A stretch of DNA of 64,000 nucleotides from Giardia intestinalis (taxonomy: Eukaryota), in NCBI GenBank assembly GCA_000002435.2, contig CM018792.1; one strand, 5' to 3'. Made by a program: the position numbers. The number at the start of each line of letters is the position of its first letter. Position 1 is the first letter of the stretch. Below, piece after piece: positions 45,001 through 48,000 of this stretch.

Positions 45001-48000
45001 GTTCCGCGCTACATCGTACGGTTGCCAGCAGTGCAATGTCATTAACTGCCAAGACTGCTCCCTGGACCTCCGCTTATGCTCTGCCTGTCTCTCTGGCTAC
45101 ACCCCCATTACGAAAGATGGGAAGATCGTGGCATGCAACAAAGCGAAGACTTCTCTTTAGACGAACTCCATGCTTTCAGTGAGGCTTTACACGCCACAGG
45201 TGACCAAGTAAATGGCTGCAAATGTCGAGGTGTCTACAAAAATGAAGGGCGTCCGGCGGCTCGAAGCCAAGGATCGTATGAACAGGATCCGAGAGGTGGA
45301 GCGCATGATGAAGGAGGAGATGCGTGCTGTACAACGGGAAAGCGAGGAGGCCATTTATCTGAAGCTCCCCTCCATTGCCATCAGTTTCTTTACGTACCAG
45401 AAGCAGACGAAAGAGTACATAGCCTCGCTCGTTCCACAGCTAGACGAGCGGTTCTACTCACTCATTAGAGTGCCCACAAAGCATACCAAACCTAAGAAGG
45501 ACGAAGTCGTTCACAGCGTCCTCATCAACGAGGCCTTCCCAATCATGACCAACCCTGACATCACAAGCAGCCCGGTGCTTCTCTTTCCAGCAGAAGAGAT
45601 CCTTGAGCTGGAGCAGAATTTAGAAGCACAGTGTCGAGACTTGGCGACCGCACTGCGAAGCATCAAGAGATGGATGGCGGTGCTCGGCGCTGCAGACAAC
45701 CTTACCGTGATGGCAGAGGAAGCCGTGGGGATATCTATGGAGGTTATCGAGACCATAGACACGTCCGCTATGTCCTTGCGCAACCTCTTTGTCGACTACC
45801 ACGCAAAGCGTTCACGGGCAGTGTGTAACTTTCAGAAGCACGGTTCACTGGATTACTTCCAGCTGGTTGTTCTCACAGACAAACAGATGTTCATGTCTAT
45901 CTCAAACTTTGTGGAAGAAATGTATGATATCGTTTGTATGTGCTACGAGATCTTAGATCAAAACTTTGACAAGTTCATAAATCCCCGCATGTCCGTGGAC
46001 AGAGGGTACCACTGACTGCCAAGAAAGCTTAATAAATAGATGCCTTGTTTACTCTTATCACATTCTGGGAACATGAATTAAATAAATGTCGAGCGACAAG
46101 TCTGCCCCAAACGACGGGATTCCGCGTTCATTTGTCTTCAAGAGAGGAAAGGTGTCCATTGCAGCCGCAGATTTGGTCAAAGATATACGCCAGGTCTTTC
46201 AGCCATACGGGTTCATTCAGTTGAAGGTTCGAAAGGGAAACAATCTTAGGGACTTCACTGCCGTCTCAGGTATCTTGGGGGCAACCCACATGACAATTTT
46301 AACTTCGTCTGGGGAGGGGACGACGATGAGGATCATCAAGCTTCCTGCGGGTCCTACACTGACCTTCCGGTTAAAGGATTACAGCACTATGGTTGATATG
46401 CACAAAGCCTTTAAAACGGAGCCACTCCCACAGTTCGCCATGAATTACCCCGCTCTTTGCATCACAGCTGGTTTCAAAAGTCAAGCTATCAAGGATGCCA
46501 ACCCTGGGCTACTTAAGGCCTTAGACCTCTGCAAGATTACTATTCAGGGGATGTATCCAGAACTTAATGTTGCAGAGGTTTCTCTTCGCTCCCTCAAAAG
46601 ATGCGTTTTGTACTCAGCGAACGACACGGGGGCCATTACATTCAGACACTACCTCCTTCGGCATCCGCTGGATGCTGAGTCTGAAAGCCTAAAGGTCCTT
46701 CTAGGAGAGAAGCGTCTGTCTCTCGGTCATCTGGATACCATCGATGACATTTCCACTCTTAAAGTAAGGGACCCGAAGACGGACCTGGATCGATTCTTTA
46801 AGGACAAACCAGTAAGGCTCATTGAGATGGGCCCTCGCTACACGCTAGAGCTCATAAAGATAGAGAGTGGGCTCACGACAGGATTGGTGTTATACCATGC
46901 ATATATAACAAAGACAGAGGAACAAATAGCACAGGCAGAAAAGAAGGCCAGACAGACACGGGGAAGGCTGGACAAAGAGGCGAAGCGCGAGATACTGCGC
47001 AGACGCTTGCGCGTGGAGCGGGAGAAGAAGGAGCATGCTAGAATCACAAAGGAGCACGAGAAAACTGCAGACAATCTGGCATCTTATGCAGCGGAAAAGG
47101 CCGGGGAGCTCTCAGAGCCGTTCATGGAGCCCAGCGGAGAATGAGGGTGTTGTCAGAGGTATTTGCGAATGCTTTCCTCAAGTATTTGAACGTACATATT
47201 AGTTTGCTCTTCATTCTCATAGAAAAATAAATCTCCTGTTGTTTTTATGACCGCTTCATCGGGACAGACCAATCTGTACTTCCCATTTCCCTTGTCTTGG
47301 AGGATGGCTGCCTTTATTGTGAGCTTTGCTAGCTTTCTAGGAGAAGTTCGAAACTCGATGGCCTCATTCTCCGATGTCTGCTCCTTGATAGAGTGGACGA
47401 AGATAGTACTCATATTTGTACTTTGAATCACTTCGATGAGGTCAAATATGCGGGAGCTGTCATCGCTTAACCGGAAACAATACATGGGAGGTATGGTTGC
47501 ACTGGTACCGAGGCAGTAAAAGAAGACGGTATGGTCACAAAGTAGTTCCAATCCGCCTACTGTGTTGTGAACGAAAAAGAGGTAATTTTGATAGCAGCTG
47601 TTGAGGGCACTGTGCAGCTCACGGGAAGTAGAGGTATTAGCAGGTTGAGAGCAGATGATAGCCGAGGGGGATAGTTGCAGATAGGATCCCGATGGAGCTC
47701 CTTCAGTCCCTCTACCATGGGGGCTATACCGTTTAATTTCGGTAGAAATAAGTTCTATCTGAAGGCCTGGCTCGAAAGACTCCATAACACTGGCTTTGGA
47801 CCCAAACTGATGCAGAAAAAGACATGGAAACTGTGGAAGGCTTGACGACGATGATTCCAAGTCTTTCGAGAACTTTGAGATGGCGTCTATGTCGATGCAA
47901 CTCGGGTCTATCACGAGTGCACGCCTATAGCAATACGACCTGGTCTCCTTCTCCACAGTAGCTTCAGAGCCAGCAGCTGCTTGCTCCTGGACCTTCTTTA

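What the first reader, a model, noticed from the sequence alone, without database searches (positions are those of the whole stretch)
45203..46015. PA28/REG-like 11S proteasome activator with a non-canonical C-terminus, and a poly(A) signal fused to its start codon
The C-terminal ~50 aa align closely with PA28alpha, including the DY.QLV...NF.K...PR spine. The protein ends RGYH rather than the activating ...IY tail. The upstream gene's AGTAAAT poly(A) signal overlaps this gene's ATG (AGTAAATGG). A single 7-mer thus serves as 3'-end signal and translation start context.
Basis: partly seen in the sequence, partly recalled or inferred. Interest (0 to 1): 0.5.

Follow-up and report, generated by a model that had tools for sequence, protein, structure and literature searches.

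The report
Giardia's known PA28-type proteasome activator gene
This is the already annotated single-copy PA28/11S proteasome-activator gene of Giardia intestinalis; its unusual last residue is real, but the supposed poly(A) signal fused to its start codon comes from an outdated gene model, because the conserved start codon lies 30 bases further downstream.

Summary
The window is Giardia intestinalis WB (assemblage A). The ORF 45212-46015 is GL50803_12062. Its product belongs to the PA28/11S family: Pfam PA28_C scores 42 bits against a cutoff of 20.9, profile-profile probability against canonical PA28 is 99.3% over 229 columns, and an AlphaFold model (pLDDT 89.5) has only PA28 structures among its top 50 PDB matches. 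This is not new. Fort et al. 2015 reported the assemblage B orthologue, and current records name the gene "Proteasome activator pa28 beta subunit". The ...DRGYH end is real and invariant across assemblages. The family's tail length and conserved proline are kept, but the terminal tyrosine and the IEDGNNFGV loop motif are not. AGTAAATGG does sit at 45207-45215. However, that ATG is in frame in only two of eight related haplotypes. It is out of frame, mutated or cut off by a stop codon in the others. The invariant TCTACAAAAATGAAGGG block places the start at 45242, as in the revised 257-aa RefSeq model. AGTAAA is therefore most likely the upstream gene's poly(A) signal, about 30 nt ahead of the real start. 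That is ordinary Giardia gene packing. No biochemistry exists for this protein.

The parts
45242..46015 (+). Coding sequence of the Giardia PA28/11S-family proteasome activator (GL50803_12062), 257 aa plus stop, in the revised gene model.
   Evidence: The protein is 100% identical to XP_001707293.2 / KAE8303416.1, named 'Proteasome activator pa28 beta subunit'. The ATG and its flank are invariant in all haplotypes. Pfam PA28_C hit, hhalign probability 99.3%, AF2 plus Foldseek.
45212..45241 (+). 30-nt 'N-terminal extension' of the old 267-aa model. It is most likely non-coding: the end of the upstream gene's 3' UTR plus the PA28 core promoter.
   Evidence: Assemblages differ here by 1-nt and 3-nt indels. 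The 45212 ATG is out of frame in L003 and L004/5, is ATA in L007, and L008 has an in-frame TAA at -3. Amino-acid identity between A and B is 4/10 here, against 95% for the rest of the protein.
45207..45212 (+). AGTAAA hexamer (AGTAAAT 45207-45213). It is the probable poly(A) signal of the upstream high-cysteine-protein gene (43916-45160).
   Evidence: It is the only AGTRAA within 200 nt after that stop, starting 47 nt after it. An AGTRAA motif lies 31-37 nt upstream of the conserved ATG in 7 of 8 haplotypes, as AGTGAA in L006. AGURAA is the Giardia poly(A) signal, with cleavage most often 13-15 nt away and a median 3' UTR of 59 nt (PMC9014877).
45231..45249 (+). Invariant block TGTCTACAAAAATGAAGGG. 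The A-rich initiator-like element plus the conserved start codon sit at 45232-45248.
   Evidence: TCTACAAAAATGAAGGG is identical in six of the eight haplotypes. L006 (TCTGC) and L008 (ACATAAATG) each differ by one base. Giardia 5' UTRs are 1-14 nt and there is no scanning (PMC3610916).
45593..45994 (+). Region matching Pfam PA28_C (residues 128-261 of the 267-aa numbering). It covers helices 2-4 of the four-helix bundle.
   Evidence: 42.1 bits against a cutoff of 20.9, profile positions 6-141 of 145. The AF2 model has helices H118-149, H156-200 and H203-246 in 257-aa numbering.
45689..45706 (+). Loop between helices 2 and 3, AADNLT (residues 160-165 in 267-aa numbering). It occupies the position of the 11S activation loop but is shorter than the canonical PKIEDGNNFGV and diverged from it.
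   Evidence: AF2 secondary structure. In the HMMER alignment DNLTV lines up with NNFGV of PA28alpha. The loop is invariant within G. intestinalis except for one T/S change. It is not conserved in G. muris or Spironucleus.
45983..46012 (+). C-terminal tail PRMSVDRGYH, the predicted proteasome alpha-ring docking tail.
   Evidence: Low pLDDT and unstructured in the model. Pro lies 9 residues before the C-terminus, as in 106 of 124 family members. DRGYH is invariant in all assemblages.
46031..46036 (+). AATAAA 15 nt after the PA28 stop codon, the probable poly(A) signal of the PA28 gene itself.
   Evidence: There is no AGTRAA within 200 nt after the stop. At the same aligned column, assemblage B, L004 and L006-L008 have AGTAAA, while A and E have AATAAA.

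Best explanation
The locus encodes the single PA28/11S-family proteasome activator of Giardia intestinalis (GL50803_12062).

The protein is a four-helix-bundle subunit. By analogy with PA26, PA28gamma and PfPA28, and because only one gene was found, it is inferred to form a homo-heptameric ring that caps the 20S proteasome without ATP or ubiquitin. In that scheme the ten-residue C-terminal tail (PRMSVDRGYH) docks with its free carboxylate into the pockets between alpha subunits. The short loop between helices 2 and 3 (AADNLT) contacts the base of the alpha N-termini and opens the gate.

Translation starts at the conserved ATG at 45242, giving 257 aa, not at 45212. The AGTAAA at 45207-45212 is the poly(A) signal of the upstream high-cysteine-protein gene. 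Its mRNA would be cleaved roughly 13-20 nt later, just before the A-rich initiator and start of the PA28 gene. The two genes are packed head to tail without sharing a functional codon.

Shown here: family membership by sequence and predicted fold, strong purifying selection, conservation of the downstream ATG, and non-conservation of the upstream ATG.

Inferred: heptamer formation, 20S binding, gate opening, and the exact RNA ends.
For: - Identity: the window proteins match WB RefSeq entries exactly.
- Family by sequence: PA28_C at 42.1 bits against a 20.9 cutoff. phmmer hits to PA28alpha 5msj/1avo and PfPA28 6muv at about 2e-4. A profile search retrieves 279 PA28 proteins. hhalign of diplomonad against canonical PA28 gives probability 99.3%, E 3.6e-20, over 229 columns that include helix 1.
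- Fold: AF2 pLDDT 89.5, pTM 0.81, with four long helices, a loop at 150-155 and a disordered tail. The Foldseek top 50 PDB hits are all PA28alpha/beta or PfPA28, with TM on target 0.52-0.77.
- Selection: A versus B is 95.3% identical in protein and 82.4% in DNA. The neighbouring genes are 83% and 91% identical in protein.
- Copy number: one cluster in G. intestinalis, with orthologues in G. muris and Spironucleus salmonicida.
- Tail geometry: the Pro at -9 is conserved.
- Start codon and poly(A). Literature: PMC9014877 and PMC3610916. RefSeq revised the model to 257 aa.
- Prior report: Fort et al. 2015, PMC4453063.
Against: - The held library contains no biochemical data on this protein.
- The canonical activation-loop motif IEDGNNFGV, invariant in 25 canonical PA28s, is absent. 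The loop is about 3 residues shorter.
- The residue equivalent to PA28alpha N146 varies among diplomonads: N in G. intestinalis, S in G. muris, D in two relatives, K in Spironucleus.
- The loop alignment differs between HMMER and hhalign.
- The terminal Tyr, present in 113 of 124 family members, is missing.
- RNA 5' and 3' ends were not measured here.
- One haplotype (L008) lacks the AGTAAA, so the signal is not absolutely conserved.
Confidence: 0.78

Rival explanations
1. The protein keeps the PA28 fold but no longer acts as a classical gate-opening activator. It might only bind the 20S, modulate it allosterically, or have another role, because both hallmark contact elements have drifted.
For: The IEDGNNFGV motif is absent and the loop is shortened. 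The loop and the last residues are not conserved between G. intestinalis, G. muris and Spironucleus. There is no terminal Tyr. Fort et al. call it only a 'distantly related thus putative' activator.
Against: Purifying selection is strong, and the loop and tail are invariant across assemblages. Tail length and the Pro position are conserved. T. brucei PA26 also has a loop that differs from PA28's, using Glu102, and is a potent activator (PMC7915322; PMC8907193).
Confidence: 0.15
2. One reading: in WB the protein starts at 45212, so the AGTAAAT heptamer is both the upstream gene's poly(A) signal and the start context of this gene.
For: The 45212 ATG is in frame in WB and in GS, and it opens the longest ORF. 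The original WB, DH and GS annotations used it.
Against: The ATG is out of frame or absent in 6 of 8 haplotypes, and L008 has a stop codon at -3. Only 4 of 10 residues are conserved between A and B, against 95% downstream. There are non-triplet indels. RefSeq moved the start. Leaders are short and there is no scanning. The 8-mer is not enriched.
Confidence: 0.06
3. The tail ...GYH, with a penultimate tyrosine, works like the HbYX motif of ATPase activators and opens the gate from the pockets, making up for a weakened activation loop.
For: The penultimate Tyr is invariant in G. intestinalis. None of the 124 sampled PA28 members has Tyr at the penultimate position. Grafting HbYX or Y-Phi tails onto loop-dead PA26 restores gate opening (PMC8907193).
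Against: The 'Hb' position is Gly, not hydrophobic. The G. muris (LVN) and Spironucleus (NMM) orthologues lack the Tyr. The Tyr can be read simply as the hydrophobic residue that the family always has at that position.
Confidence: 0.05

Closest known systems
PA28/REG 11S activators (PSME1/2/3; Pfam PF02251 + PF02252), e.g. mouse or human PA28alpha (5msj, 7dr6) and Plasmodium falciparum PA28 (6dfk, 6muv)
   Same: Full-length homology, with hhalign probability 99.3%. Four-helix-bundle subunit with a helix 2-3 loop and a roughly 10-residue flexible tail. Conserved Y186, R190, K199 and D204 core positions. Pro 9 residues from the C-terminus. A variable insert between helices 1 and 2.
   Different: Only 16-21% identity. 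PA28_N is not detected by Pfam. The IEDGNNFGV loop is replaced by the shorter AADNLTV. The terminal residue is His and the penultimate is Tyr, instead of hydrophobic followed by Tyr. It is a single gene, so a homo-oligomer is expected, unlike vertebrate alpha/beta.
Trypanosoma brucei PA26
   Same: It is a protist 11S activator that is a homoheptamer, diverges strongly from metazoan PA28 in sequence, and has a non-PA28 loop sequence with an acidic key residue (Glu102). Fort et al. treat the Giardia protein as a bridge between PA26 and PA28.
   Different: The Giardia protein is much closer to PA28 than PA26 is: BLAST E 6e-08 against 1.3-8.7 in Fort et al.. PA26 did not appear among my sequence or fold hits. 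No direct comparison with PA26 was made here.
Diplomonad orthologues: Giardia muris TNJ29860.1 and Spironucleus salmonicida EST49389.1, both annotated 'Proteasome activator pa28 beta subunit'
   Same: Same family and architecture. G. muris is 45% identical (E 6e-74) and Spironucleus 28% (E 5e-12). They share the shortened loop.
   Different: Loop residues and C-termini differ...SDRLVN and ...VDNMM against ...DRGYH.
Giardia dual-use poly(A) signals (AG-UAA stop/poly(A) overlaps; Bilodeau et al. 2022)
   Same: The same AGURAA hexamer, in a very compact intergenic setting.
   Different: The documented dual use is with stop codons. Here the apparent overlap is with an ATG that is not the conserved start.

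Membership tests
PA28/REG 11S proteasome activator family | Significant match to the PA28 C-terminal domain profile (PF02252) above the curated threshold | tested here: met
   42.1 bits against 20.9, E 9.5e-11, profile positions 6-141 of 145; hhalign probability 99.3% against 25 canonical PA28s.
PA28/REG 11S proteasome activator family | N-terminal helix 1 region (PF02251, PA28_N) | tested here: inconclusive
   There is no Pfam PA28_N hit. However, hhalign aligns from residue 15, including the EAE..I....P.KI motif, and AF2 predicts a long helix 1 packed in the bundle.
PA28/REG 11S proteasome activator family | Subunit fold: four long, roughly parallel helices | tested here: met
   AF2 pLDDT 89.5, with helices 2-72, 118-149, 156-200 and 203-246. 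The Foldseek top 50 PDB hits are all 11S activators, probability 1.00. This is a prediction, not a solved structure.
PA28/REG 11S proteasome activator family | Activation loop between helices 2 and 3 with the conserved motif (IEDGNNFGV in PA28; described as invariant in 11S regulators, PMC10526260) | tested here: not met
   A loop is present at the right place, but the motif is not. The loop reads AADNLTV and is about 3 residues shorter. Only N163, L164 and V166 can be matched to N146, F147 and V149. It is not conserved among diplomonads. PA26 shows that a divergent loop can still work.
PA28/REG 11S proteasome activator family | Flexible C-terminal tail of about 10 residues with a conserved Pro at its start | tested here: met
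   The tail is PRMSVDRGYH, with Pro 9 residues before the end, as in 106 of 124 members. It has low pLDDT.
PA28/REG 11S proteasome activator family | Terminal tyrosine | tested here: not met
   The protein ends in His, with a penultimate Tyr. 113 of 124 sampled members end in Y, and the exceptions are mostly protist sequences ending in F, N, M or L.
PA28/REG 11S proteasome activator family | Heptameric ring assembly | not testable with these tools
   No multimer prediction or experiment was available. The single gene copy suggests a homo-oligomer.
PA28/REG 11S proteasome activator family | ATP-independent binding to the 20S alpha ring and stimulation of peptide hydrolysis | not testable with these tools
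   No experimental report was found in the held library.
Giardia AGURAA poly(A) signal (for the 45207 hexamer) | AGURAA hexamer downstream of a co-oriented stop codon at a typical 3' UTR distance, conserved in related isolates | tested here: met
   AGTAAA starts 47 nt after the stop. The implied 3' UTR of about 60-70 nt compares with a median of 59 nt. The motif is conserved in 7 of 8 haplotypes.
Giardia AGURAA poly(A) signal (for the 45207 hexamer) | Mapped cleavage site 13-15 nt (under 20 nt) downstream | not tested
   The gene was not found in the stored, truncated supplementary tables of PMC9014877.

The most novel reading that the evidence does not exclude
The most novel reading still open is that G. 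intestinalis has a natural hybrid activator. It would combine an 11S ring whose classical activation loop has degenerated with a tail carrying a penultimate tyrosine (...GYH). The tail would then contribute HbYX-like, pocket-driven gate opening, the arrangement so far made only by engineering PA26. A weaker variant is that the conserved AGTAAA 31-37 nt upstream of the start serves both as the upstream gene's poly(A) signal and as an AT-rich promoter element of the PA28 gene.
Probability: 0.06. Interest if true: 0.5.

Novelty: already known. Interest (0 to 1): 0.1.

Why it matters
There is little new here. The gene has been annotated and discussed in the literature since 2015 as the only non-ATPase proteasome regulator Giardia retains: Fort et al. 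report that it lacks PA200, PI31 and the CSN subunits.

Three points are useful:
- A warning that the 267-aa model, still circulating in older records for WB, DH and GS, carries a spurious 10-residue extension.
- A clean comparative demonstration of how tightly a Giardia poly(A) signal and the next gene's initiator are packed.
- The observation that diplomonad PA28s lack both the canonical loop motif and the terminal tyrosine. That makes them a reasonable test case for which 11S features are really needed for gate opening.

Because the Giardia proteasome is a drug-target candidate, a biochemical test of this activator would have some practical value.

Tried and rejected
- Looked for mapped 3' ends of the neighbouring genes in the supplementary tables of Bilodeau et al. 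2022. Only GL50803_12061 turned up, and the stored files are truncated, so no experimental RNA ends were obtained.
- Searched the paper library for GL50803_12062 and for Giardia 11S/PA28 biochemistry. Nothing was found beyond the 2015 comparative study and reviews.
- Fetched short Logan and ENA contigs encoding the 257-aa form, hoping they were transcript ends. They span the neighbouring genes, so they say nothing about transcript ends. They did supply two informative haplotypes, L007 and L008.
- Tested whether AGTAAATG is enriched in the window. It is not: 4 observed against about 2 expected.
- Considered the weak Pfam hits HSM3_C, APP_E2 and DUF7389. All are below their thresholds and overlap helical regions, so they were rejected as coiled or helical noise.
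- The exact residue correspondence in the activation loop could not be settled. HMMER, MAFFT and hhalign place the gap differently. I prefer the ungapped register from helix 3, which puts N163 opposite N146, but this remains an inference.
- The second structure-prediction job, the remaining fold searches and the metagenome and genome scans were not used, because the identity was already settled.
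Full report
**What the window is.** The ORF at 45212-46015 (+) encodes 267 aa. Its product is 100% identical to GL50803_12062 / DHA2_12062 of Giardia intestinalis assemblage A. The three neighbours also match WB RefSeq proteins exactly:
- Rab2a, 43075-43719 (-)
- a 414-aa high cysteine protein, 43916-45160 (+)
- the Brix-domain 'Peter pan' protein, 46086-47144 (+)

The window is therefore G. intestinalis WB or a near-identical assemblage A isolate.

**Is it a PA28?** Yes, by every test available.
- Pfam PA28_C matches residues 128-261 at 42.1 bits (curated cutoff 20.9, E 9.5e-11).
- phmmer against PDB sequences finds PA28alpha (5msj, 1avo, 7dr6), P. falciparum PA28 (6muv, 6dfk) and PA28gamma (7yqd).
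- An exhaustive HMMER search of 1.8 billion representatives finds only eight relatives at E <= 0.001, of which five were characterised:
  - G. muris (45% identity, E 6e-74)
  - two unnamed relatives
  - Spironucleus salmonicida (E 5e-12)
  - a canonical PA28 carrying KIEDGNNFGV
- A profile built from these retrieves 279 PA28-family proteins.
- A profile-profile comparison of eight diplomonad sequences against 25 canonical PA28s gives probability 99.3%, E 3.6e-20, over 229 columns. The match starts in helix 1, at the EAE..I....P.KI motif, so the N-terminal domain is homologous too although Pfam PA28_N does not fire.
- An AlphaFold2 model of the 257-aa form has pLDDT 89.5 and pTM 0.81. It shows helices 2-72, 118-149, 156-200 and 203-246, a six-residue loop at 150-155 and a disordered tail.
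- The 50 best Foldseek matches in the PDB are all 11S activators: mouse and human PA28alpha/beta and PfPA28, probability 1.00, TM on target 0.52-0.77.

**Is it new?** No.
- Fort et al. 2015 (PMC4453063) identified EET00138, the assemblage B orthologue (my P0002, 95% identical). They called it a PA28/PA26 relative and noted it is essentially the only non-19S regulator Giardia keeps.
- The current WB, G. muris and S. salmonicida records are all named 'Proteasome activator pa28 beta subunit'.
- I found no biochemical study of it.

**The C-terminus.** The protein ends PRMSVDRGYH, and DRGYH is invariant in every G. intestinalis haplotype examined. I compared it with 124 PA28-family sequences recovered here, a sample biased towards vertebrates.
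- 113 of the 124 end in Tyr. The others end in F, N, M, L or R, and the exceptions include the protist and diplomonad sequences (G. muris ends in N).
- The penultimate residue is I, M, L or V in 123 of the 124.
- The last Pro lies exactly 9 residues before the end in 106 of the 124.
- Giardia keeps the Pro spacing and has an aromatic or hydrophobic residue (Tyr) at the penultimate position, but replaces the terminal Tyr with His.
- G. muris ends ...DRLVN and Spironucleus ...VDNMM.

Reviews describe the tail as supplying binding energy mainly through the terminal carboxylate's salt bridge to the pocket lysine, with a conserved terminal Tyr and a Pro at -10 (PMC10526260; PMC7915322).

**The activation loop.**
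- Canonical PA28s have an invariant I-E-D-G-N-N-F-G-V.
- Giardia has the shorter L-G-A-A-D-N-L-T-V.
- In the register that is ungapped from helix 3, N163, L164 and V166 line up with N146, F147 and V149 of PA28alpha. MAFFT and hhalign place the gap differently.
- The N146-equivalent residue is S in G. muris, D in two relatives and K in Spironucleus.

**Selection.** Between assemblages A and B the 257-aa protein is 95.3% identical while the DNA is 82.4% identical. The neighbouring genes are 83% and 91% identical at protein level. The protein is therefore under strong purifying selection and is surely functional.

**The poly(A)/start-codon claim.** AGTAAAT is at 45207-45213 and overlaps the ATG at 45212-45214. 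I aligned this region from eight haplotypes:
- WB (assemblage A)
- GS (assemblage B; L001 and L002)
- P15 (assemblage E; L003)
- three Logan assemblies of other lineages (L004, L005, L006)
- two further B-like contigs (L007, L008)

The block TCTACAAAAATGAAGGG, carrying the ATG at 45242, is identical in six haplotypes; L006 and L008 each differ from it by one base. The ATG at 45212 behaves differently in each haplotype:

| Haplotype | State of the 45212 ATG |
|---|---|
| WB, GS | in frame |
| P15 | out of frame (1-nt indel) |
| L004/L005 | out of frame |
| L007 | changed to ATA |
| L006 | absent; no in-frame upstream ATG at all |
| L008 | absent; an in-frame TAA directly precedes the conserved ATG |

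Further points against the 45212 start:
- Between A and B the ten 'extra' residues share only M, S, T and K, against 95% identity downstream. The DNA between them carries compensating 1-nt indels.
- RefSeq shortened the WB model from 267 aa (XP_001707293.1) to 257 aa (XP_001707293.2), and P15 was always annotated at 257 aa.
- Giardia mRNAs have 1-14 nt leaders and the ribosome does not scan (PMC3610916). A transcript starting in the conserved A-rich element must therefore begin translation at 45242.

The hexamer itself does look like a real poly(A) signal for the upstream gene.
- It is the only AGTRAA within 200 nt after that stop codon, starting 47 nt after it.
- An AGTRAA lies 31-37 nt upstream of the conserved ATG in 7 of 8 haplotypes. 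In L006 it is AGTGAA, the other accepted variant.
- Giardia uses AGURAA, with cleavage most often 13-15 nt away and a median 3' UTR of 59 nt (PMC9014877).
- That puts the predicted cleavage at about 45220-45232, just ahead of the PA28 initiator.

The two genes therefore abut but do not share a functional codon. AGTAAATG is not enriched in the window: 4 observed against about 2 expected.

**Context.** Such tight packing is ordinary in this genome. In the same window, the gene at 41363-43003 (-) ends ...GAG TAA, with AG-TAA-A forming a stop/poly(A) overlap. The next gene's ATG follows 3 nt later. That is a tighter arrangement than the one flagged.

**Mechanism (inferred).**
- A single-gene homo-heptameric 11S cap.
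- The tails dock by their carboxylates in the alpha-ring pockets.
- The helix 2-3 loops push on the Pro17 reverse turns to open the gate.
- The process is ATP- and ubiquitin-independent.

Membership by sequence and fold is met. Two classical hallmarks, the loop motif and the terminal Tyr, were tested and not met. Heptamer formation and activity could not be tested. PA26 shows that a divergent loop is compatible with strong activation.

Alternatives:
- A binding-only or otherwise altered regulator, about 15%.
- An HbYX-like contribution from the penultimate Tyr, about 5%. This is weakened by Gly at the Hb position and by the absence of the Tyr in G. muris.

**Verdict.** This is a correct family call on an already annotated gene. 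The observation about the last residue is accurate but modest. The dual-use 7-mer idea rests on a superseded start codon. Interest is low.

Noticed in passing
window 41357-41367 (- strand): The 546-aa gene at 41363-43003 (-) ends ...GCA GAG TAA, so AG-TAA-A forms a poly(A) signal overlapping its stop codon. The ATG of the next gene, 40415-41359 (-), follows after only 3 nt. Cleavage 13-15 nt downstream would fall inside the next gene's first codons. This is a tighter 3'-end/start arrangement than the one flagged.
   Followed up: partly
window 46031-46036 (+); aligned columns in L001, L003, L004, L006-L008: The PA28 gene's own probable poly(A) signal is AATAAA, the metazoan hexamer, in assemblages A and E. 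It is AGTAAA at the same aligned position in assemblage B and three other lineages. This is a natural G-to-A polymorphism at the position that distinguishes the Giardia signal from the metazoan one.
   Followed up: partly
window 43901-43906 (+): An AGTAAA hexamer lies 9 nt upstream of the high-cysteine-protein gene's ATG (43916), within the 196-nt divergent intergenic region shared with Rab2a. No co-oriented upstream gene exists there. It may end antisense or bidirectional transcripts, or simply be part of the AT-rich promoter.
   Followed up: no
L008 60-215 (ENA ERZ27287561 k141_140932): This B-like haplotype has AGAAAA instead of AGTAAA upstream of the PA28 gene, and ACATAAATG instead of ACAAAAATG. 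That creates an in-frame TAA immediately before the conserved start. It is a natural variant in which the upstream gene's hexamer is lost.
   Followed up: partly
window 43916-45160 (+): The upstream 414-aa cysteine-rich protein is named 'High cysteine protein' in WB but 'Variant-specific surface protein' in the DH, GS and P15 records. It is syntenic and 75-83% identical across assemblages, which is unlike a typical variable VSP, and it ends ...NKAKTSL.
   Followed up: no
window 47153-50467 (-): The 1104-aa ORF downstream has a weak precomputed Pfam BRCA-2_OB1 hit in its assemblage B and Logan orthologues. It may be the Giardia BRCA2-like protein.
   Followed up: no
window 45455-45500 (residues ~82-97 of the 267-aa model): The linker between helices 1 and 2 contains a short lysine-rich stretch, TKHTKPKKDE, with low model confidence (pLDDT 55-80). 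It occupies the position of the homologue-specific KEKE-type insert of vertebrate PA28 but is much shorter.
   Followed up: no
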